From: Chiloscyllium plagiosum
Lineage: Eukaryota
Assembly (NCBI RefSeq): GCF_004010195.1
Contig: NC_057756.1
Location: 9,128,434 to 9,163,626 of the forward strand
DNA: 35,193 nucleotides
Reading direction: 5' to 3'
The first letter of the stretch is position 1, and every line of letters begins with the position of its first letter. The translations under genes and the position numbers were made by a program. The notes beneath the pieces were generated by a model that was not told the origin of the DNA, did no database searches, and saw nothing but the letters and a program-made list of their open reading frames with translations. Below are positions 1-30,658 of this stretch, piece after piece.

Positions 1-405
1 AGATAGGGAGGGGGTGTAGGGGCTGGAGGGGGTTACAGAGATAGGGAGGGGGTGTAGGGGCTGGAGGGGGTTACAGAGATAGGGAGGGGGTGTAGGGGCT
101 GGAGGGGGTTACAGAGATAGGGAGGGGGTGTAGGGGCTGGAGGGGGTTACAGAGATAGGGAGGGGGTGTAGGGGCTGGAGGGGGTTACAGAGATAGGGAG
201 GGGGTGTAGGGGCTGGAGGGGGTTACAGAGATAGGGAGGGGGTGTAGGGGCTGGAGGGGGTTACAGAGATAGGGAGGGGGTGTAGGGGCTGGAGGGGGTT
301 ACAGAGATAGGGAGGGGGTGTAGGGGCTGGAGGGGGTTACAGAGATAGGGAGGGGGTGTAGGGGCTGGAGGGGGTTACAGAGATAGGGAGGGGTGTAGGG
401 GCTGG
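1..405 (+). repeat. G-rich minisatellite, 38-bp unit (AGAGATAGGGAGGGGGTGTAGGGGCTGGAGGGGGTTAC), ~10 copies, runs off the window start
   Basis: Near-perfect tandem copies read directly; four G-tracts per unit. Confidence 0.97.
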
Positions 406-449
406 ATAAATGAGAGTTTAACAGCTGGTGAAGTGAACTGTTCTATAAA

Positions 450-591
450 GGCCGGTTTACACAGGCTCAGTCCGGTTTACACAGGCTCAGTCCGGTTTAC
501 ACAGGCTCAGGCCCGTTTACACAGGCTCAGGCCGGTTTACACAGGCTCAGTCCGGTTTACACAGGCTCAGTCCGGTTTACACAGGCTCAGG
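450..591 (+). repeat. 20-bp tandem repeat ([G/T]CCGGTTTACACAGGCTCAG) x7
   Basis: Read directly. Confidence 0.95.
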
Positions 592-769
592 CTCCCACGT
601 CAGTAATGAGTTTGCCGCATCAATTGGCAGTGTCGGTGGCTATCTTGTGCACAGCATGATCCCACGCACAACAAAGGCATTTAGTTGCAGGCGATTTGTT
701 TGTGGTGGTTGTCCGTTGTGGAGTGAAGTTGGTCAGGACCTCAGGAGGGTCATGTTGGAGTGGAGAGGG

Positions 770-1029
770 TCAGGGGAGAGAGTAGGGTTGGATGTGCTCA
801 CAGAGATCAGCACAGTACGTTCGGTCTCCCTCTGCCCGAGTCAGCCTGGCGGTCGGATCGATTGAGTGGGTGGGTCCTTGTGTCTGTCTGACTGTTTAGG
901 ATGCCTTCAGACCATCTCGGTCAGGGTGTCTGCTGTGGATGGACGTTGTGCATTAGCCTAGCACCTTACTCACCCTCCCGCCAATACCCAGAAGCCAGCT
1001 CACTGTTGTGGTGCGGAAGACGCAGCAGC
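770..1029 (-). pseudogene. Degenerate apolipoprotein-like mature-protein exons (exon 3/4 remnants)
   Basis: Acceptor ctgacag|GC TGC at 1029 completes the signal-peptide ...VLT-G-C. Fragments in shifting frames (FW at 993-988, YWRE, DTLTEM at 930-913, YCADLCEHIQPY at 817-782) resemble the ApoE/ApoA-IV FWxY motif and 22-mer 'QPY' repeats; stops or frameshifts in all frames. Confidence 0.45.
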
Positions 1030-1230
1030 CTGTCAGTGCACAGGAGGATCACAGGAACCGCTCCATGATGATCGCCCACTGAGACACAAACCCCGGCCTC
1101 AGAAACACAGCTCCCTCTACCTCCCCCCCCCCCCCAACTCCCACCGCCTGGGAGATCTCTCAGTGTTCCTCTTCCGAAATAACAGGCATGCAACTCGAGA
1201 GTGGGAAGGTGTGGTGATGTGGCAACTCAC

Positions 1231-1273
1231 CGGTCAGGACTGTCAATGCCAGGATAATGCTGATGGTCTTCAT
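1231..1273 (-). CDS. Signal-peptide coding exon MKTISIILALTVLT-G of an apolipoprotein-like gene (whole exon ~1314-1231)
   Basis: Acceptor gttgtttccgtgcag at 1315; Kozak-like GCAACATGA; exactly 43 coding nt then phase-1 donor G|GTGAGT, the same length and phase as the APOE/APOA1 signal exon. Confidence 0.7.
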
Positions 1274-1387
1274 GTTGCTGGGCACTTAGGGCCACGTGCA
1301 AAACTGCACAGGATCTGCACGGAAACAACGGGTTACTACTTTAACATTATTACTTGCAACAGTGGATTTAAACTTCAGATTGTGAGA

Positions 1388-1510
1388 ATGCAGCACTCCC
1401 TCAGCACTGGCCCTCTGACAGTGCGGCACTCCCTCAGCACTGACCCTCCGACAGTGCGGCACTCCCTCAGCACTGACCCTCCGACAGTGCGGCACTCCCT
1501 CAGCACTGAT
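1388..1510 (+). repeat. 33-bp tandem repeat (GTGCGGCACTCCCTCAGCACTGACCCTCCGACA) x~3.5, probably Deu-SINE-derived
   Basis: Tandem copies seen; origin inferred from similarity to the Deu domain motif cagcactccctcagtactg. Confidence 0.85.
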
Positions 1511-1569
1511 GTTCGGATGCTGTGTGCACTGGGTTACAGTAAGGTAAGACCTGCTTTTGCCTCACCTTT

Positions 1570-2395
1570 TCAGAGTTTTAGAGTCACCGAGTCGTACAGC
1601 ACGGGAACAGACCCTTCGGTCTAACTCGTCCTTGCCAACCCTAACCCCTAACCAAACTAGTCCCACCTGCCCGGTCCTGACCCATATTCCTCCAAACCTT
1701 CCCTGTTCATGTCCTTATCCAAATGTCTTGTAATGTCTTCAGCTGTACAAAACTCTGGTGCGGCCGCACTTGGAGTATTGCGAACAGTTCAGGTCACCGC
1801 ATTACAGGAAGGATGTGGAAGCTTTGGAAAGGGTGCAGAGGAGATTTACTGGGATGTTGCCTGGTATGGAGGGAAGGTCTTACGAGGAAAGGCTGAGGGC
1901 CTTGAGGCTGTTTTTGTTGGAGAGAAGAAGGTTGAGAGGTGACTTAATCGAGACATTTCAGATAATCAGAGGGTGGACAGGGTGAACCTTTTTCTTCAGA
2001 TGGTGAAGGTTAACACGAGGGGACATAGCTTTAAATTGAGAGGTGACCGATATAGGACAGATGTCAGAGGTAGTTTCTTTACTCAGAGAGTAGTAGGGGA
2101 GTGGAACCCACTGCCTGCAACAGACTCACCAACTTTAAGGACATTTCATGGTCTTTGGATAAACATATGGATAATAATGGAATGGTGTAGGTTAGCTGGG
2201 CTTCAGGTTAACTTCACAGGTCGGTGCTGTATCGAGGGCCGAAGGGCCTGGACTGCGCTGGAATATTCTATGTTCTAAACATTGTAACTGCCCCCACATC
2301 CACCACTTCCTCAGAAAGTTCATTCCAGACACGAACCACCCTCCTGTCCTTTTTAAGTCTCTCCCCTCTCACTTTAAAAACATGCTCCCTTGTCT
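1570..2395 (-). mobile_element. CR1 LINE 3' fragment, split by a nested plus-strand CR1
   Basis: Reverse complement of CR1 3'UTR at 1570-1733; continues at 2276-2395. Confidence 0.8.
1734..2275 (+). mobile_element. CR1 LINE 3' fragment (ORF2 C-terminus + 3'UTR)
   Basis: RPHLEYC..SPHYRKDVEALERVQRRFT..ERRRLRGDLIE; ends ATTCTATGTTCT. Confidence 0.95.
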
Positions 2396-2677
2396 CACAG
2401 CCCCGCCTGGCCTTGCCAGCATCTTTCGTGCCCCTCCTTTCATTTCAAACTGCTCATCCATGACCCTGATGCTAAAGACCATGAGGACGACTCCTGATCA
2501 CCCTTTGTCCAGGAGTGTCAGACTGGGTAAATATCAGTGTAGCTCCTCACGTGTGCTCTCAAGTCATTGTAAATGTTTGACAAACAAAGAACAAAGCCCT
2601 TGAGTCAAGTTGAAACCAGAATACGACCTAATCGGATCAAGTTAGAAACACTAGTGATTCGTTGTGAAAACACTTAC

Positions 2678-2710
2678 CTCTTTAGATTAGCAGGTCTGAA
2701 GAAGGCAGGA
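2678..2710 (-). other. Short non-coding first exon of the apolipoprotein-like gene
   Basis: Ends in consensus donor AAGAG|GTAAGT (2678/2677), ~50 nt downstream of the TATA box; TSS approximate. Confidence 0.6.
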
Positions 2711-2726
2711 GAGATTCTATGCGAAA

Positions 2727-2803
2727 CCTTTATATAGGCATGTCTCTAGCTCGATAAGATATGATGTTGTTCGATTGGAATCCTAAAGTCCAACCTGTTA
2801 TCT
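2727..2803 (-). promoter_or_regulatory. TATA promoter with liver/gut-type motifs
   Basis: TATATAAAGG 2736-2727; GATAAG 2753-2758; CCAAT 2778-2774; HNF4-like TAAAGTCCA 2784-2792; AGATAA 2803-2798. Confidence 0.65.
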
Positions 2804-3094
2804 CCTGTCTCACTCTCCATCACTATTTATGATCCTCCTGCCTTGTTGTAACTCAAAGGCTGAGGTGATTGGCAAAATGATTTAGTTTCACTTAATGAGA
2901 GAACTTTAAATTCTTGAAGAGAGTTCTCTGGTTATGAACAGGACTAGGGTCGTGTCAGCAGACCACCGAGTGGATGGTTTCAAGTTAGCTTTGAGATTGA
3001 GAGGAAAGATTCAGCCCTCATAATCTCAGTAACACATTTCTCTGCTATTTTCATGGGTGTTTCATTGTAAGAGAGTGTGCAACAGCGTGCCAAG

Positions 3095-3815
3095 GCATGG
3101 TTTTGGTGTCTTTGTAGAACAGAGAGACCTAGGGGTTCAGGGACATTATCCTTTGGAGTTTGTGTCACACACAGACAGGGGGGTTACGAAGGGGTTTAGC
3201 ACCTTCCCTTCATTGCTCAGCCCTTTGAGTGTCGGAGTTGGGAACGTCATGTTGAGGTTGTACAGGACATTCATGAGGTCCCTTCTGGAATACTGTGTCC
3301 AGTGCCAGGAAGGATGTTATTAAACTGGAGAGGGTTCCGGAGAGATTTCCCAGGATGTTGCCGGGAATGGGAGGGTTGGAGTTATAAAGAAAGGCTGGAT
3401 AGGCTGGGACTGTTTTCCCCGGAGCGTCGGAGGCTGAGGGGTGACCTTATAGAGGTTTATAAAATCATGAGGGGGACAGAGAGGGTGAATGGCTGGTGTC
3501 TTCTCTAGGATTGGGGCATTTCAAAACTAAAGGGGCACATTTTCAAGGTGAGAGGAGAGAGATTTAACAAAGACATGAGGGGCAACATTTTTCCCCAGAG
3601 GATGGTCCGTGTGTGGAATGACTTTCCTGAGGAAGTGGGGGGATGTGGGGACAGTTACAACGTTTAAAAGACATTTGGATAAGGACATGAACAGGAAAGG
3701 GTTGGAGAGAGATGGGCCAGGAGCAGGCAGCTGGGACTGGTTTAGTTTGGGATTCGGGTCGGTATGGACTGGGTGGGCCGAAGGGTCTGTTTACGTGCTG
3801 TGGGACTCGATGACT
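3095..3815 (+). mobile_element. CR1 LINE 3' fragment
   Basis: QRDLGV..MLRLYRT..LEYCVQ..ERRRLRGDLIEVYKIM..FKRHLD, plus 3'UTR. Confidence 0.95.
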
Positions 3816-5037: not shown

Positions 5038-5487
5038 TCTCAGGTGAAGGCTGTGGGATCTTGCTGTTCAGCATGGCTCCTATCTGTTGTACAAGCGGTG
5101 ATATTCTTATGGCTTACCAATGGATGAATCTTTCAATAGAGACTGAGGAATGGACAGTGTAGATATTATCCATCAACCGTTCAGAGCCACCTGGATCCTG
5201 AGAGTGTTATCCTAGAGGTTGGGACACTACCACTACTCCATGACTTCCTTTTCTTTGAGAAGGGCTATGTATCTGCTGCTGTTTCCTGCACCCCACTCCC
5301 CCCAACACAGGCCCCTCAGTAAAGTGTCGAGACAGGAATGGGTTGGGGGGGGTGGGGTGAGGCCAGCTGAGGTATTTTCTGATCAAACGCATCCACAGAC
5401 GTTCTGACTCACCTCTGGTGGTTATTGAACCTCAAAGTCCTGGTACAGAGGTATGGACACTACCACCATGCCACAAATGCCCTTAAA

Positions 5488-6293
5488 CAGTGGATTGCCA
5501 CAAGGATCGGTGCTGGGTCCACTACTTTTCATCATTTATATAAATGATTTGGATGTGAGCATAAGAGGTACGGTTAGTAAGTTTGCAGATGAGACCAAAA
5601 TTGGAGGTGTAGTGGACAGCGAAGAGGGTTACCTCAGATTACAACAGGATCTGGAGCAGATGGGCCAATGGGCTGAGAAGTGGCAGATGGAGTTTAATTC
5701 AGATAAATGCGAGGTGCTGCATTTTGGGAAAGCAAATCTTAGCAGGACTTATACACTTAATGGTAAGGTCCTAGGGAGTGTTGCTGAACAAAGGTTGTGA
5801 AACCTGAAAGGGTTCAGAAAAGTTTTACAAGATCCTCCAGGGTTGGAGGATCTGAGCTACAGGGAGAGGCTGAACAGGCTGGGGCTGTTTTCCCTGGAGC
5901 GTCGGAGGATGAAGGGTGACCTTATAGAGGTTTATAAAATCATGAGGGGCACGGATAGGGTAAATAAACAAGGTCTTTTCCCCCTGGGGTGGGGGAGTCC
6001 AGAACTAGAGTGCATACGTTTGGGTGAGATGGAAAAGATATAAAAGAGACCTAAGGGGCAACTTTTTCACCCAGAGGGTGGTACGTGTATGGAATGAGCT
6101 GCCAGAGGAAGTGGTGGAGGCTGGTACAATTGCAACATTTAAGAGGCATTTGGATGGGTATATGAATAGGAAGGGTTTGGAGGGATATGGGCCGGGTGCT
6201 GGCAGGTGGGACTAGATTGGGTTGGGATATCTGGTCGGCATGGATGGGTTGGGCCGCAGAGTCTGTTTCCGTGCTGTCCATCTCGATGACTCT
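5488..6293 (+). mobile_element. CR1 LINE RT domain + 3' end with an internal deletion near 5793
   Basis: GLPQGSVLGPLLFIIYINDLD..KFADETKIGG..WQMEFN; RRRMKGDLIEVYKIM; FFTQRVVRVWNELP. Confidence 0.97.
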
Positions 6294-8769: not shown

Positions 8770-10580
8770 ATCCCAGAGTGTTCCCGTCAGTCTGAATCCC
8801 AGTGTGTTCCCGTCAGTCTGAATTCCAGTGCATTCTCGTCAGTCTGAATCCCAGTGCGTTCCCGTCAGTCTGAATCCCAGAGTGTTTCCGTCAGTCTGAA
8901 TCCCAGTGCATTCTCGTCAGTCTGAATCCCAGTGGGTTCCCGTCAATCTGAATCCCAGAGTGTTCCTGTCAGTCTGACTCCCTGTGTTCCCATCAGTCTG
9001 AATCCCAGGGTGTTCCCATCAGCCTGACTCCCAGAGTGTTCCTGTCAGTCTGAATCCCAGTGTATTCCCGTCAGTCTGAATCCCAGTGTATTCCCATTAG
9101 TCAGACTCCCAGTGTGTTCCCGTCAGTCTGAATCCAAGTGTGTTCCCGTCAGTCTGACTCCCAGTGTGTTCCCGTCAGTCCGAATACCACTGTTCCAGTC
9201 AGTCTGAATCCCAGTGTGTTCCCATTAGACCGACTCCCAGTGTGTTCTCAGCCTATCCCTGTCAGTGTATCTCCCAGCCTGTCCCTGTCACTGTATCGCC
9301 CACTCTGTCCCTATCAGTGTAACCCCTGGCCTGTCCCTGTCAGTGTATCTCACGGCCTGTCCCTGTATCTCCCAGCCTGTCCCTGTCAGTGTATCTCCCA
9401 CCCTGTCCCTGTCAGTGTAACCCCTGGCCTGTCCCTGTCAGTGTATCTCCCGGCCTGTCCCTGTCACTGTATCTCCCGGCCTGTCCCTGTCAGTGTATCT
9501 CCCAGCCTGTCCCTGTCAGTGTAACCCCTGGCCTGTCCCTGTCACTGTATCTCCCACTCAGTCCCTATCAGTGTAACCCCCGGCCAGTCCCTGTCAGTGT
9601 AACCCCTGGCCTGTCCCTGTCAGTGTAACCCCGGGCCTGTCCCTGTCACTGTATCTCCCACTCAGTCCCTATCAGAGTAACCCCTGGCCTGTCCCTGTCA
9701 CTGTATCTCCCACTCAGTCCCTATCAGAGTAACCCCTGGCCTGTCCCTGTCACTGTATCTCCCACTCAGTCCCTATCAGAGTAACCCCTGGCCTGTCCCT
9801 GTCAGTGTATCTCCCACCCTGACCCTGTCAGTGTATCTCCCACCCTGACCCTGTCAGTGTATCTCCCACCCTGACCCTGTCAGTGTATCTCCCACCCTGA
9901 CCCTGTCAGTGTATCTCCCACCCTGACCCTGTCAGTGTATCTCCCACCCTGACCCTGTCAGTGTATCTCCCACCCTGACCCTGTCAGTGTATCTCCCACC
10001 CTGACCCTGTCAGTGTATCTCCCACCCTGACCCTGTCAGTGTATCTCCCACCCTGACCCTGTCAGTGTATCTCCCACCCTGACCCTGTCAGTGTATCTCC
10101 CACCCTGACCCTGTCAGTGTATCTCCCACCCTGACCCTGTCAGTGTATCTCCCACCCTGACCCTGTCAGTGTATCTCCCACCCTGACCCTGTCAGTGTAT
10201 CTCCCACCCTGACCCTGTCAGTGTATCTCCCACCCTGACCCTGTCAGTGTATCTCCCACCCTGACCCTGTCAGTGTATCTCCCACCCTGACCCTGTCAGT
10301 GTATCTCCCACCCTGACCCTGTCAGTGTATCTCCCACCCTGACCCTGTCAGTGTATCTCCCACCCTGACCCTGTCAGTGTATCTCCCACCCTGACCCTGT
10401 CAGTGTATCTCCCACCCTGACCCTGTCAGTGTATCTCCCACCCTGACCCTGTCAGTGTATCTCCCACCCTGACCCTGTCAGTGTATCTCCCACCCTGACC
10501 CTGTCAGTGTATCTCCCACCCTGACCCTGTCAGTGTATCTCCCACCCTGACCCTGTCAGTGTATCTCCCACCCTGACCCT
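8770..10580 (+). repeat. Compound 26-bp-period minisatellite (three sub-arrays)
   Basis: GTCAGTCTGAATCCCAGTGTGTTCCC (8770-9245); CCTGTCCCTGTCAGTGTATCTCCCAG-type mixed units (9250-9800); CCCTGACCCTGTCAGTGTATCTCCCA x~30, perfect (9800-10580). Confidence 0.97.
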
Positions 10581-10885
10581 CCTGTGGTAAAGATTCCTTG
10601 GAATCATTACCTCATCTCGAATTCCGCCTTGCAATGCCTAATTTTGAGATTATACCCTCTCATCCTCGGAATCTTGGATGTTTCAATGAGGTCTCTCAAT
10701 CTTTTCAACTCTAACGAGGCTAGGCCCAACCTCCTCAATCTCTCCTCATGACAAAGTCCCCTCCTTCCCCACATCCGCCCAGTGAACCCTCTCTGGACTG
10801 CCCCCAATCCCAGAATCCCTTTCCTCAGGTGAATGGCCCAAATCTGTTCACTGTATTCTAGCTGTGATCTGACCCCTGCCTTCTG
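10581..10885 (-). mobile_element. Degenerate CR1 fragment
   Basis: AVQRGFT..EERLRRLGL..LKRLRDLIETSKI. Confidence 0.85.
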
Positions 10886-10982
10886 TTGTTTGAGCAGACC
10901 ACTTTCCTCGGGGTGAGGGGCTAACCCACTGACCTGGATTTTTGAAGTAACCCGGATAATTTATTTTCTGTCGCCTTGTCAG

Positions 10983-11052
10983 ATTCCGCAAAATTAAGCT
11001 GAAGCAGAGGAAGCTCCGGGAGCAGGTCAGCGCCATGATGGACATCTCCAAG
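10983..11052 (+). CDS. KCNN4: KCNN4 (KCa3.1/IK1)-like penultimate coding exon, calmodulin-binding helix: x-FRKIKLKQRKLREQVSAMMDISK
   Basis: Acceptor ttttctgtcgccttgtcag, donor AAG|GTAACA, 70 nt. Closely matches human KCNN4 [23 protein letters not shown], better than KCNN2 [23 protein letters not shown]; SMG9 lies downstream as in human. Confidence 0.93.
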
Positions 11053-11082
11053 GTAACAGGCGCTATGGTCTAATCAGCTTCC

Positions 11083-11095
11083 AGGTCAAAGGTCA
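11083..11095 (+). promoter_or_regulatory. Perfect DR1 nuclear-receptor element AGGTCAAAGGTCA
   Basis: Exact consensus, 30 nt into the intron; function untested. Confidence 0.45.
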
Positions 11096-11134
11096 ATGGA
11101 CCCATCATCGCCCCCCCCCCCCACCTCCCTTACA

Positions 11135-11910
11135 TGGAACTGTGCAGAACGGAGTGAATGGGAAGGGCGTTTGATCCATTGGGATTCTGTAGAATGGGAG
11201 TGAATAGGAAAGGATTTTGGGGCTCCTCTGGATTTGTGTCCAATGGGAGTGAATGAAAAGGGAGTATGATTCATTGGGATTGCATACAACAGGAGTGAAT
11301 GGGAAGGGGTTTGGTCCATTGGGAGTGTGTCAAATGGGAATGAATGGGAAATGGTTTGAATCCACTGGGATTGTGTCCAATGAGGGTGAATGGGAAGGGG
11401 TTTGAGTCCATTGGGATTTGTACATCGGGAGCGAATGGGGAAGGGGTTTAGGTCCACTGGGATTGTGTGGAGTGGTTGTGATCAGAAAGACATTTAGGTC
11501 CATTAGGATTGTGTTGAGCGGCTGTGAACAGGAAAACGTTTCGCTCCATTGGGATTGTGTAGAGTGGGAGAGAATGGGCAAAGAATTTTGGGGTCCAATT
11601 GGGATTGTGTAGACTGGGAGTGAATGGGAAGGGGTTTGAGTCCATTAGGATTGTGTAGACTGAGATTGAATGGGAAGGGGTTTAGGTCCATTGGGATTGT
11701 GTAGAGTGGGAATGAATAGGGAAGTGTTTTGGGTCCTTTGGGATTGTGTAGAGTGGGAGTGAATGGGGAAGTGTTTTGGGTCCTTTGGAATTGTGTAGAC
11801 CGGGCGTGAATGGGAAGTGTTTTAGGTCCATTGGAATTGTGTAGAGCGGGAGTGAATGGGAAGACATTTGGGTCCATTGGGATTGTGTAGAGCGGGAATG
11901 AAGGGGGAAG
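11135..11910 (+). repeat. Diverged ~46-bp minisatellite (CCATTGGGATTGTGTAGAGTGGGAGTGAATGGGAAGGGGTTTGGGT) filling the last KCNN4 coding intron
   Basis: ~16 imperfect copies. Confidence 0.93.
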
Positions 11911-12057
11911 CGGTTCAAGGTATTCCCTGACATGACGATCCTCAGAGATGCTGGGAGGGGTGGGGGTGGGGATTGGCGAGGAACAACGTGTCATGAATAG
12001 GGGGGGTGAAGAGCGATGTCACTACAGAAGGTTAACATGTAACTCCTGACCTTGAAG

Positions 12058-12222
12058 ATGCAGCTGCTCCTGCAAGACATGAATGCCAGGATGATGGAGT
12101 CCTACGCCGAGATGGAGAACAACCTGGCAGCCTTGGTAACCAAGGTCGATAGACTCTCCGCGGCCTTTGACGAGCTGCCCAGGCTGATCTGTGACACTTT
12201 CAACGGGCAAAAGACTGGGTGA
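12058..12222 (+). CDS. KCNN4: KCNN4-like terminal coding exon (coiled-coil): MQLLLQDMNARMMESYAEMENNLAALVTKVDRLSAAFDELPRLICDTFNGQKTG*
   Basis: Acceptor cctgaccttgaag, phase 0 matching the previous exon. Aligns with KCNN4 MHMILYDLQQ..LEKQIDTLAGKLDAL and KCNN2 ..LPGLISQTI; TGA 12220-12222. Confidence 0.88.
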   Translation: MQLLLQDMNARMMESYAEMENNLAALVTKVDRLSAAFDELPRLICDTFNGQKTG

Positions 12223-21244: not shown

Positions 21245-22405
21245 ACACAGCAACTATAAGAGCAGGTCAGAGGCTAGGAATACTTTGGCAAGGAACTCAC
21301 CTCCTGACCCCCCCCCAAAGCCTGTCCCACCATCTGCAATGCACAAGTCAGGAGGGTGAGGGAATACTCCCCACTTGCCCCTGGATGGGGAACAGCAGTG
21401 TGTACCATCCCCTCCCCACGCCCAACGACCCTCAGTAACAGCAGTGTGTACCATCCCCTCCCCACGCCCAACGACCCTCAGTAACAGCAGTGTGTACCAT
21501 CCCCTCCCCACGCCCAACGACCCTCAGTAACAGCAGTGTGTACCATCCCCTCCCCACGCCCAACGACCCTCAGTAACAGCAGTGTGTACCATCCCCTCCC
21601 CACGCCCAACGACCCTCAGTAACAGCAGTGTGTACCATCCCCTCCCCACGCCCAACGACCCTCAGTAACAGCAGTGTGTACCATCCCCTCCCCACGCCCA
21701 ACGACCCTCAGTAACAGCAGTGTGTACCATCCCCTCCCCACGCCCAACGACCCTCAGTAACAGCAGTGTGTACCATCCCCTCCCCACGCCCAACGACCCT
21801 CAGTAACAGCAGTGTGTACCATCCCCTCCCCACGCCCAACGACCCTCAGTAACAGCAGTGTGTACCATCCCCTCCCCACGCCCAACGACCCTCAGTAACA
21901 GCAGTGTGTACCATCCCCTCCCCACGCCCAACGACCCTCAGTAACAGCAGTGTGTACCATCCCCTCCCCACGCCCAACGACCCTCAGTAACAGCAGTGTG
22001 TACCATCCCCTCCCCACGCCCAACGACCCTCAGTAACAGCAGTGTGTACCATCCCCTCCCCACGCCCAACGACCCTCAGTAACAGCAGTGTGTACCATCC
22101 CCTGCCTCCCCCCATCGACGCTCAGTAACAGCAGTGTGTACCAGCTACAAGACCCACTGCAGAAACTCACCAAAGATCCTCAGGCAGCACCTTCCAAACT
22201 CACGGCCACTTCCATCTAGAAGGACAAGGGGCAGCAGATGCATGGGAACAACACCCCTCTGCAAGTTCCCCTCCGAGCCCCTCACCATCCCGACTTGGAA
22301 TTTTGCCAATTCCTTAGCTGTCACTGGGTCAAGATCTGTCCCAAACAGCACTGCAGGTGCAACGACACCCCCAGGGTCTGCAGTAGTTCAGGGAGGTGGG
22401 TCATA
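21245..22405 (+). mobile_element. CR1/L2-group LINE 3' fragment interrupted by an internal minisatellite
   Basis: ATIRAGQRLGIL..; HCRNSPKILRQHLPNSRPLPSRRTR. Confidence 0.85.
21391..22141 (+). repeat. 46-bp minisatellite (AACAGCAGTGTGTACCATCCCCTCCCCACGCCCAACGACCCTCAGT) x~16
   Basis: Perfect tandem copies. Confidence 0.98.
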
Positions 22406-28960: not shown

Positions 28961-29689
28961 CCTTAAGCTGAAAAACAAAGAAGCTGGAGATGAGAAAAGC
29001 AAACAGAACCCTTCCTGATTCCCTGCTGCCCCGTGTGGGGCCAGCTTGCTGTGTTATGTGCATGGGGTCCCACGGTCCCTTTCTGCAGTTTCTCTCGGTT
29101 AAAATAACACTTTGCTCCCCCTTCGAAAATGAATGACTTTGCATTTTCTCTCACGTTGTGGAACTGCAACGGTGTCACAACAGGCTTTGCTTCTGCTTTA
29201 AGAGCCCTTGCCTTTTACTGAAAACTTCCCTCGAGAAATATTGGGTCACGTTCCTTTTGAATTGAATTATCTTTGGAGATTTGAGAATCGACATGGTTTC
29301 CCCTCTTGCTTCCCATCTCCTTTCATTCCCCAAGTCCCATCTCTTTTTGCAGACTAAAGTGAATAATTCGGTCTTTGAATCTTCACTTCCTGCTTTACGG
29401 TTTGCGTGTCTCACATTATACTCTATTTGCTCAGGTTTGTGCCCACCCACCTGACCCATCGATATGTCCATCAACCGTTTGTATTCCTCTCACCTCTTCC
29501 ACCTACTTTTCGTGTCGTCTGCAAATTCTATTAGTCCATTCACTTCCTCCCTCTAAGCCGTTAATATATGTTGGAAGCATTTGTGGATCTTTCACTGATC
29601 CCTGTGGAATTCCACTAGTCACTGATCGCCAATCTGCCAAGAAAATGCCGAATGGGTTTCCTCATTTCTCCTGTCCCCACCTTAGCCCA

Positions 29690-29970
29690 ATTCCAACCCT
29701 CCAGCTCAGCACCGTCCCCATGACCTGTCCCACCTGTCACCCCAATCCCAACCCTCCAGCTCAGCACCGTCCCCATGACCTGTCTCACCTGTCATCCCAA
29801 TCCCAACCCTCCAGCTCAGCACCGTCCCCATGACCTGTCTCACCTGTCACCCCAATCCCAACCCTCCAGCTCAGCACCGTCCCCATGACCTGTCTCACCT
29901 GTCACCCCAATCCCAACCCTCCAGCTCAGCACCGTCCCCATGACCTGTCTCACCTGTCACCCCAATCCCA
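29690..29970 (+). repeat. 55-bp minisatellite derived from Penelope-like sequence, running into the gap
   Basis: CCAACCCTCCAGCTCAGCACCGTCCCCATGACCTGTCTCACCTGTCACCCCAATC x5. Confidence 0.93.
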
Positions 29971-30658
29971 NNNNNNNNNNNNNNNNNNNNNNNNNNNNNN
30001 NNNNNNNNNNNNNNNNNNNNNNNNNNNNNNNNNNNNNNNNNNNNNNNNNNNNNNNNNNNNNNNNNNNNNNNNNNNNNNNNNNNNNNNNNNNNNNNNNNNN
30101 NNNNNNNNNNNNNNNNNNNNNNNNNNNNNNNNNNNNNNNNNNNNNNNNNNNNNNNNNNNNNNNNNNNNNNNNNNNNNNNNNNNNNNNNNNNNNNNNNNNN
30201 NNNNNNNNNNNNNNNNNNNNNNNNNNNNNNNNNNNNNNNNNNNNNNNNNNNNNNNNNNNNNNNNNNNNNNNNNNNNNNNNNNNNNNNNNNNNNNNNNNNN
30301 NNNNNNNNNNNNNNNNNNNNNNNNNNNNNNNNNNNNNNNNNNNNNNNNNNNNNNNNNNNNNNNNNNNNNNNNNNNNNNNNNNNNNNNNNNNNNNNNNNNN
30401 NNNNNNNNNNNNNNNNNNNNNNNNNNNNNNNNNNNNNNNNNNNNNNNNNNNNNNNNNNNNNNNNNNNNNNNNNNNNNNNNNNNNNNNNNNNNNNNNNNNN
30501 NNNNNNNNNNNNNNNNNNNNNNNNNNNNNNNNNNNNNNNNNNNNNNNNNNNNNNNNNNNNNNNNNNNNNNNNNNNNNNNNNNNNNNNNNNNNNNNNNNNN
30601 NNNNNNNNNNNNNNNNNNNNNNNNNNNNNNNNNNNNNNNNNNNNNNNNNNNNNNNNNN
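29971..30658. other. Assembly gap (N)
   Basis: Run of n. Confidence 1.

What the first reader, a model, noticed from the sequence alone, without database searches (positions are those of the whole stretch)
770..2803. Apolipoprotein-like gene nested antisense inside a KCNN4 intron
Seen on the minus strand: TATA box, short non-coding exon with GTAAGT donor (2678), a 43-nt phase-1 signal exon MKTISIILALTVLT-G (1273-1231), and an acceptor giving G-C (1029). Known: non-coding exon 1 plus a 43-nt signal exon is the APOE/APOA1 architecture, and APOE and KCNN4 share human 19q13. Inference: I found no earlier KCNN4 exon (the AAxVLxExW..HQRK exon) between 1 and 10982, so this unit likely sits in a KCNN4 intron of more than 11 kb. 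It could mark the edge of a nested apolipoprotein cluster that the ORF track does not show.
Basis: partly seen in the sequence, partly recalled or inferred. Interest (0 to 1): 0.8.

Follow-up and report, generated by a model that had tools for sequence, protein, structure and literature searches.

The report
Apolipoprotein-type gene start inside KCNN4
On the opposite strand of a shark potassium-channel gene (KCNN4-like) sits what looks like the promoter and signal-peptide exon of a blood-lipid carrier (apolipoprotein) gene, but the rest of that gene is hidden by an assembly gap, so it is a plausible, fairly ordinary and still unproven extra family member.

Summary
The minus-strand features are real: TATATAAA (2736-2729), GAG|GTAAGT donor (exon 1 ends 2678), acceptor at 1314, ATG at 1273, 43 coding nt (MKTISIILALTVLT+G) and a GTGAGT donor after 1231. 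The peptide fits a profile of 55 apolipoprotein A-I/A-IV/E N-termini at 22.6 bits. The best of 11,343 candidates in 20 Mb of simulated strands reached 13.6. Two apolipoprotein genes of this genome have the same 43-nt, phase-1 signal exon. The unit lies between KCNN4-like exons at -10505..-10104 and 10983-11052 on the + strand, so "antisense inside KCNN4" holds. No exon-3 or exon-4 apolipoprotein sequence exists in the visible 85 kb. A 5,038-N gap starts right at window position 0. It is not the ApoE-like gene, whose own signal exon is on contig C75311. The best candidate body is the ApoA-IV-like last exon on the 1.2-kb unplaced contig C23267, by elimination only. No spliced reads were obtained. 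Verdict: probably the 5' end of a known-family gene; nesting plausible, cluster unproven.

The parts
2866..2873 (-). GCCAATCA, a CCAAT-box-like motif about 135 nt upstream of the TATA box
   Evidence: Sequence only; function inferred, not tested
2729..2736 (-). TATATAAA, the putative TATA box
   Evidence: unique, non-repetitive DNA (zero depth of repeat-derived reads in bins 2382-3000)
2678..2706 (-). Putative non-coding exon 1. The 3' end at 2678 is fixed by GAG|GTAAGT; the 5' end (about 30 nt after the TATA box) is inferred.
   Evidence: no transcript evidence
1315..2677 (-). Intron 1 (1,363 nt), mostly interspersed repeats (about 1330-2400, including a 33-mer tandem array at 1389-1509)
   Evidence: tandem repeat; very high depth from all runs only in bins 1329-2381
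1231..1314 (-). Exon 2: 41-nt leader, ATG at 1273, 43 coding nt (MKTISIILALTVLT + first base of a Gly codon), phase-1 donor GTGAGT
   Evidence: DNA unique in the genome
1..1230 (-). Start of intron 2. It runs through two minisatellites (452-590 and 1-406) into a 5,038-N gap that begins at window position 0.
   Evidence: no family exon found here
973..1029 (-).
10983..11052 (+). KCNN4-like exon (RFRKIKLKQRKLREQVSAMMDISK), the first host-gene exon downstream of the unit
12058..12222 (+). KCNN4-like last coding exon (MQLLLQDMNARMM...GQKTG, stop)

Best explanation
Positions 1231-2736 (minus strand) are the promoter, the short non-coding first exon and the signal-peptide exon of a gene of the exchangeable apolipoprotein family (ApoA-I/A-IV/E type). 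The gene would be transcribed from its own TATA promoter, antisense to and inside a KCNN4-like potassium-channel gene. Its product would be a secreted amphipathic-helix lipid carrier, with the signal peptide cut a few residues after the exon-2/3 junction. Exons 3 and 4, which encode the whole mature protein, are not in the window. They most likely lie in the 5-kb assembly gap that abuts window position 1. The best candidate for exon 4 is the ApoA-IV-like last exon on the 1,195-base unplaced contig C23267. Shown: the sequence signals, the family-like signal peptide and the position between KCNN4-like exons. Inferred: transcription, splicing, the missing exons, the pairing with C23267 and liver/gut expression.
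For: (1) All signals are present at the stated places, and no upstream ATG occurs in the leader. (2) The peptide scores 22.6 bits against a 55-sequence family N-terminal matrix. None of 11,343 simulated candidates reaches this (maximum 13.6). The next best of 139 real candidates scores 8.1. The score is within the family's leave-one-out range, and 0.38% of shuffles reach it. (3) The design recurs in the same genome. The ApoA-I gene on C35 has MKVTAIILALFVIT+G, 43 nt, GT donor, and shares 10 of 15 residues with the window peptide; its exons 3 and 4 lie downstream and match whale-shark ApoA-I. The ApoE-like gene has a TATAAAA box about 210 nt before MKSFTAVLTVLLIV+G, 43 nt, GTAAGT donor. (4) Host gene: KCNN4-like exons, 94% identical to an epaulette-shark protein, flank the unit on the + strand, with none between 1 and 10982. 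(5) Linkage elsewhere. ApoE(b)-like and KCNN4-like proteins lie on contigs of identical length in Stegostoma (19,005,769), Carcharodon (16,521,807) and Hemiscyllium (40,247,764). In Stegostoma the RefSeq numbers are 10 apart (XP_048379910 versus XP_048379920). A kcnn gene next to apolipoprotein genes from lamprey to zebrafish is in print (PMC7431520, passages read). (6) Elimination. Among unplaced contigs with family exons, C100491 holds exons 2(?), 3 and 4. C75311 plus C96031 together hold the ApoE-like exons 2, 3 and 4. Only C23267 (exon 4 plus 3'UTR with AATAAA) lacks a 5' end, and its exon 3 is nowhere in the assembly.
Against: No part of a mature apolipoprotein is linked to these exons. 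No PF01442 hit lies on contig C47, though only 150 of 555 candidates were scored. No Pfam family was found in 58 minus-strand open frames over the next 20 kb. No exon-3 profile hit appeared in 85 kb. A 15-residue signal peptide is weak evidence for a family, because many secreted-protein genes have phase-1 signal exons. The matrix was not tested against unrelated signal peptides. The word search of the 5.8-billion-protein collection for this N-terminus listed nothing (7 candidates, none at E<=10). This is weak, since a perfect 15-residue match could barely reach that threshold. The same gap, or other gaps, must also hold three missing KCNN4 exons (aa 178-299), which crowds it. The pairing with C23267 rests on elimination alone. 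The accession-number argument assumes that RefSeq numbers follow gene order.
Confidence: 0.55

Rival explanations
1. It is a relic: the 5' end of a former apolipoprotein gene whose body was lost or moved. The promoter and signal exon are still intact by chance or youth, and it makes no protein.
For: No family body appears anywhere in the visible 85 kb. Intron 1 is swollen by repeat insertions and intron 2 runs into minisatellites. An 84-nt exon can stay intact for a long time without selection.
Against: Every signal is intact: TATA box, both donors at consensus, acceptor, ATG context and no upstream ATG. A 5-kb gap directly downstream is a simpler reason for the missing body. An orphan family exon 4 exists on C23267.
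Confidence: 0.17
2. It is the first two exons of an unrelated secreted or membrane protein gene (for example Ly6/uPAR-type or immunoglobulin-superfamily, which also use short phase-1 signal exons). The likeness to apolipoprotein signals would then be generic.
For: Much of the matrix score comes from M1, K2 and hydrophobic positions. Phase-1 signal exons are common in secreted-protein genes (general knowledge, recalled). No apolipoprotein body is linked.
Against: The length is exactly 43 nt and the peptide ends in T-G, as in the family. It shares 10 of 15 residues with this genome's ApoA-I signal, and residue order matters (0.38% of shuffles reach the score). No other domain was found on the minus strand in 58 downstream frames. 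Family genes are linked to KCNN4-like in other sharks.
Confidence: 0.13
3. It is a chance juxtaposition of motifs in intronic DNA, and no gene is there.
For: No reads of the single-cell RNA run lie on either exon, which is not a real test. No gene model with this N-terminus was retrieved.
Against: None of 11,343 simulated candidates reaches the score. The nearest real background candidate is 14 bits lower. A TATA box, a consensus donor and a good acceptor lie in the right order and spacing.
Confidence: 0.1
4. One reading: exon 3 starts at 1029 and the gene continues within the window as an ApoE-like gene.
For: An AG precedes 1029, and a GTGAGT donor follows 57 nt later.
Against: The encoded GCCVFRTTTVSWLLGIGGR matches no family exon 3. 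The ApoE-like gene's own signal exon is on C75311, and its exon 3 starts 70 nt into C96031. No AATAAA occurs on the minus strand of 1-3200.
Confidence: 0.03

Closest known systems
ApoA-I gene of the same genome (G000:C35, about 9,073,082-9,077,489, minus strand; orthologue of 'apolipoprotein A-I [Rhincodon typus]' XP_048471554.1)
   Same: The signal exon has exactly 43 coding nt and ends in T-G plus a GT donor (phase 1). It shares 10 of 15 residues (MKVTAIILALFVITG versus MKTISIILALTVLTG).
   Different: That gene has its exons 3 and 4 in place. Its leader in exon 2 is 20 nt, not 41. It lies on another chromosome-sized contig.
ApoE-like gene of sharks ('apolipoprotein E-like [Hemiscyllium ocellatum]' XP_060708692.1; 'apolipoprotein Eb-like' of Stegostoma, Carcharodon, Scyliorhinus); here split over unplaced contigs C75311 and C96031
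   Same: It has a TATA box and a 43-nt phase-1 signal exon. It is on the same chromosome as KCNN4-like in three sharks.
   Different: Its signal exon reads MKSFTAVLTVLLIVG, 4 of 15 identical to the window's. The window exon is therefore not this gene's first coding exon.
Short 'apolipoprotein A-IV-like' gene (Narcine bancroftii XP_069796127.1, 245 aa); here exon 4 only, on unplaced contig C23267
   Same: It is the only family body in the assembly's unplaced contigs without a 5' end. The contig is 1.2 kb and would fit the gap. The contig ends in repeats on both sides.
   Different: No physical or transcript link to the window was found. The ray protein's signal (MKLIALLVTLTLALS) shares only 5 of 15 residues, though it comes from a distant species with only 53% identity in exon 4.
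Ancient kcnn-apolipoprotein linkage (lamprey LAL2 next to kcnn, zebrafish apo clusters: PMC7431520; human APOE and KCNN4 both on 19q13, recalled)
   Same: An apolipoprotein-family gene lies beside a KCNN gene.
   Different: The published cases are neighbours, not a gene inside a KCNN intron. The passages read do not name KCNN4 or sharks.

Membership tests
Exchangeable apolipoproteins (ApoA-I/A-IV/E, Pfam PF01442) | A last exon encoding tandem 11/22-residue amphipathic helices that match PF01442 | tested here: inconclusive
   Nothing in the window, on contig C47 among scored hits, or in 58 downstream frames. However, a 5,038-N gap abuts the unit, and an orphan matching exon exists on C23267.
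Exchangeable apolipoproteins (ApoA-I/A-IV/E, Pfam PF01442) | Exon 3 (about 150-190 nt, phase 1 in, phase 2 out) with the conserved N-terminal W..FW.Y-type segment | tested here: inconclusive
   A profile from 54 family proteins finds the ApoA-I and ApoE-like exon 3 of this genome (E 4e-13 and 2e-10). It finds nothing in 2,938 frames of the 85-kb region (best E 2.3). The gap is not testable.
Exchangeable apolipoproteins (ApoA-I/A-IV/E, Pfam PF01442) | A signal-peptide exon with about 43 coding nt, interrupted in phase 1 within a Gly codon a few residues before the cleavage site | tested here: met
   Window 1273-1231. The same is seen in this genome's ApoA-I and ApoE-like genes.
Exchangeable apolipoproteins (ApoA-I/A-IV/E, Pfam PF01442) | An N-terminal sequence like that of family members | tested here: met
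   22.6 bits against a 55-sequence matrix, inside the family range and far above background. Specificity against unrelated signal peptides was not tested.
Exchangeable apolipoproteins (ApoA-I/A-IV/E, Pfam PF01442) | A short non-coding exon 1 behind a TATA box, with intron 1 in the leader | tested here: inconclusive
   The motifs are present at 2736-2729 and 2678. No transcript shows that they are used. That this is the APOA1/APOE design is recalled, not tested.
Exchangeable apolipoproteins (ApoA-I/A-IV/E, Pfam PF01442) | Transcribed and spliced, classically in liver, gut or yolk sac | tested here: inconclusive
   No suitable run was available. The limits of one low-depth contig of a related organism over the exon-2 bins cannot be read.
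Nested (intronic, antisense) gene in KCNN4 | Host-gene exons on the opposite strand on both sides | tested here: met
   KCNN4-like exons at -10505..-10104 and 10983-11052 on the + strand.
Nested (intronic, antisense) gene in KCNN4 | The whole inner gene lies within one host intron | not testable with these tools
   The inner gene's 3' part and the three host exons for aa 178-299 are all missing from the assembly.

The most novel reading that the evidence does not exclude
Hemiscylliid sharks carry an intact, so far unannotated exchangeable-apolipoprotein gene (ApoA-IV-like) wholly inside an intron of KCNN4, on the opposite strand, with the ApoE-like gene close by. The vertebrate KCNN-apolipoprotein linkage (human 19q13, lamprey LAL2-kcnn) would then go back to a nested or interleaved arrangement, and this locus would mark the ancestral site of the APOE/APOA4-type cluster.
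Probability: 0.3. Interest if true: 0.45.

Novelty: new member of a known kind. Interest (0 to 1): 0.3.

Why it matters
If the gene is whole, it adds a family member to the small apolipoprotein set of cartilaginous fish. It would also place that member inside KCNN4, giving a fixed landmark for tracing how the APOE/APOA4-type clusters and the KCNN genes stayed linked from lamprey to human. [quoted passage not shown] This genome has at least ApoA-I, a long and a short ApoA-IV-like gene, an ApoE-like gene and one more divergent exon. On its own, though, an extra paralogue's first two exons are ordinary, and the assembly here is too broken to carry a strong claim.

Tried and rejected
RNA evidence. 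The look-up of sequencing runs listed no RNA holder (24 runs; the 14 small-share rows are only guessed to be RNA).

Read laying on 600-3000 with four runs:
- Single-cell RNA run X19 (about 2% of it read): 632 reads, all in the repeat bins 1329-2381 and none on either exon.
- X20: 0 reads laid, so no test.
- X7 (same species, RNA only guessed): nothing outside the repeats.
- X1 (related organism A, RNA only guessed): depth 1.34 in bin 1167-1247 and 5.12 in bin 1248-1328. This fits either a contig of depth about 6 covering just exon 2, or an unspliced contig of depth 5.12 from about 1227 onward. The bins cannot tell these apart. No joint at 1231, 1314 or 2678 appeared among the rows shown; 12 joints and 455 loose ends were not shown.
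None of this counts for or against expression.

Repeated with a 41-residue frame, it listed nothing.

The ApoE-like gene as owner of the exon was rejected by its orthologue's N-terminus and by finding its own exon on C75311.

C97237, C101562, C21:50683005 and C101290 'apolipoprotein' hits are tandem-repeat translations, not genes.

Pfam scans of 58 downstream minus-strand frames and of 150 of the 271 frames of 50 aa or more in 2800-35193 gave only a reverse-transcriptase fragment (5429-5797). No further neighbour gene could therefore be used for synteny.

The scan's notebook had nothing on this place or these sequences.

Literature searches for shark apolipoprotein synteny or a gene nested in KCNN4 found no such paper (0, 2 and 0 papers; one search was uninformative).
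Full report
**What is there.** Read on the minus strand, the window holds the following signals:
- a CCAAT-like motif at 2873-2866;
- TATATAAA at 2736-2729;
- about 30 nt further on, a stretch that ends in GAG|GTAAGT, so exon 1 ends at 2678;
- a 1,363-nt intron;
- an acceptor ccgtgcag|ATCC, so exon 2 starts at 1314;
- 41 nt of leader without any ATG;
- ATG at 1273 (AACATGA context);
- 43 coding nt, MKTISIILALTVLT plus the first G of a codon;
- a GTGAGT donor from 1230.

Intron 1 is mostly interspersed repeat. All four laid runs pile up only in bins 1329-2381, and a 33-mer array lies at 1389-1509. The exon-2 DNA is unique in the 3.56-Gb genome.

**Is it more than chance?** I collected 109 ApoA-I/A-IV/E-family proteins with two searches. 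I kept the 55 whose first 15 residues start with M and are signal-like; the other 54 were dropped as partial models or models with long N-terminal extensions. From these I built a position matrix.
- The window peptide scores 22.6 bits.
- Among 139 'ATG + 43 nt + GT, no stop' candidates in 114 kb of real DNA (the 85-kb region plus KCNN paralogue loci), the next best scores 8.1.
- Among 11,343 candidates in 10 Mb x 2 strands of Markov-simulated sequence, the maximum is 13.6.
- Leave-one-out scores of the family have a median of 24.8 and quartiles of 19.0 and 29.3; 35 of 55 score at least 22.6.
- Shuffling residues 3-15 of the window peptide reaches 22.6 in 0.38% of 20,000 trials.

The exon is therefore a real signal-peptide-type exon with the family's positional pattern. 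I did not test the matrix against unrelated signal peptides, so family specificity is only partly shown.

**The same design in this genome.** A Pfam PF01442 search of the whole genome (150 of 555 candidates scored) gave four genuine last exons:
- C35:9,073,082-9,073,639;
- C100491 (ApoA-IV-like, long);
- C96031 (ApoE-like);
- C23267 (short ApoA-IV-like).

A fifth, divergent one lies at C35:368,460-369,338. Several other hits are translated tandem repeats.

About 3.8 kb upstream of the first C35 exon lies MKVTAIILALFVIT+G. It has 43 nt and a GT donor, shares 10 of 15 residues with the window peptide, and is followed by an exon 3 (...YEFGKQLK). The gene matches whale-shark 'apolipoprotein A-I'.

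The ApoE-like gene has a TATAAAA box about 210 nt before MKSFTAVLTVLLIV+G, again 43 nt and a GTAAGT donor, on contig C75311. Its exon 3 starts 70 nt into contig C96031, in phase 1.

**What it is not.** The epaulette-shark orthologue of the C96031 gene (96% identical in the shared part) starts MKGFTAVLTVLLIVG, and the matching exon of this genome is on C75311. The window exon is therefore not the ApoE-like gene's.

Three checks found no family exon 3 in the visible sequence:
- An exon-3 profile from 54 family proteins recovers both positive controls (E 4.4e-13 and 2.1e-10) but gives best E 2.3 over 2,938 frames of the 85-kb region.
- tblastn with 109 family proteins finds only the signal exon: P0118 residues 1-15 on 1273-1229.
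- Fifty-eight minus-strand frames over the next 20 kb have no Pfam family. The single E 0.023 hit is below its cut-off and irrelevant.

No AATAAA lies on the minus strand of 1-3200.

**Where the rest may be.** The window is G000:C47:9,128,434-9,163,626. Directly before position 1 the scaffold reads 5,038 N. The window's first 406 bases are a 38-mer minisatellite that runs into that gap.

Among the unplaced contigs with family exons, the picture is as follows:
- C100491 holds its own exons 3 and 4 and a likely signal exon.
- C75311 plus C96031 make up the ApoE-like gene.
- C23267 (1,195 b) holds only an exon 4 with stop and AATAAA, and is flanked by repeats.
- C23267's exon 3 is found nowhere in the assembly.

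By elimination, the window's orphan 5' end and C23267's orphan 3' end may be one gene. The closest named relative is 'apolipoprotein A-IV-like' of an electric ray, at 53% identity. Nothing physical or transcriptional links them, so I rate this pairing at about even odds, given that the unit is a family gene.

**The host gene.** A KCNN4-like gene runs on the + strand:
- residues 44-177 at window -10505..-10104, 94% identical to an epaulette-shark model; a Chiloscyllium 'KCNN4' is in the same 90% cluster;
- the exon RFRKIKLKQRKLREQVSAMMDISK at 10983-11052;
- the last coding exon at 12058-12222.

The three exons for residues 178-299 (pore, S6, calmodulin-binding start) are not in the visible interval. 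They are found elsewhere in the assembly only at paralogue level (63% or less), so they too must lie in gaps. Whether the whole inner gene fits one intron cannot be told.

**Linkage in other species.** ApoE(b)-like and KCNN4-like proteins are recorded on contigs of identical length in Stegostoma, Carcharodon and Hemiscyllium. In Stegostoma their RefSeq numbers are ten apart. Reading closeness from accession numbers is my inference. PMC7431520 (passages read) reports kcnn among the genes next to lamprey LAL2 and zebrafish apolipoprotein genes. That APOE and KCNN4 share human 19q13 is recalled, not tested. [quoted passage not shown]

**Expression.** This could not be tested properly (details under Tried and rejected).

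**Verdict.** The most likely reading (0.55) is the 5' end of an exchangeable-apolipoprotein gene, antisense within KCNN4-like, whose body is lost in an assembly gap. The rivals are a relic 5' end (0.17), another secreted-protein gene (0.13) and chance (0.10). It is at most a new member of a known family in a known neighbourhood, so interest is modest until a gap-free relative or liver RNA shows the full gene.

Noticed in passing
G000:C75311:2793-2835 (L032/L040) and G000:C96031:71-221, about 1895-2552 (L029): The ApoE-like gene of this genome is split over two unplaced contigs: TATA box and signal exon on C75311, exons 3 and 4 on C96031. It carries LRKYRKRLNRDQ, a basic stretch that recalls (from memory) the ApoE receptor-binding region. 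A 2019 paper states ApoE is absent from cartilaginous fish (PMC6854765, passages read).
   Followed up: partly
window -10104..10982 (scaffold C47:9,118,330-9,139,415): The three KCNN4-like exons for residues 178-299 (pore, S6, start of the calmodulin-binding domain) are missing from the assembly. Gaps of 541 and 5,038 N lie in the interval.
   Followed up: partly
G000:C35:368460-369338 (+) (L044): A fifth, divergent apolipoprotein-like last exon of 293 codons (46 bits to PF01442, below the cut-off). No signal exon is visible in the 2.7 kb upstream, and a 3.3-kb gap lies beyond that.
   Followed up: partly
window 11053-11124 (+): The C-terminus of a Stegostoma KCNN4-like isoform X2 aligns to read-through of the donor at 11052 (VTGAMV*SASRS...), here with a stop. 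This may be a conserved alternative 3' end by intron retention, or a model artefact.
   Followed up: no
window 1-406, 8770-10580, 11151-11915, 21391-22143, 29686-29970: Long, very regular minisatellites: a 38-mer x 10.7 at 99%, 26-mers x about 70, a 46-mer x 16 at 99%, and a 55-mer x 5 that abuts the 688-N gap at 29971-30658. Arrays touch at least two of the gaps.
   Followed up: no
window 5429-5797 (+): A reverse-transcriptase fragment (RVT_1, E 1.3e-14) of a LINE-type element in the KCNN4-like intron. It was the only Pfam hit among the 150 frames scanned in 2800-35193.
   Followed up: no
window about 1227-1328: One run of a related organism (X1, RNA only guessed) has a low-depth contig over exactly the exon-2 bins, the only unique DNA of 600-3000 covered by any run. 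Its limits could not be read.
   Followed up: partly
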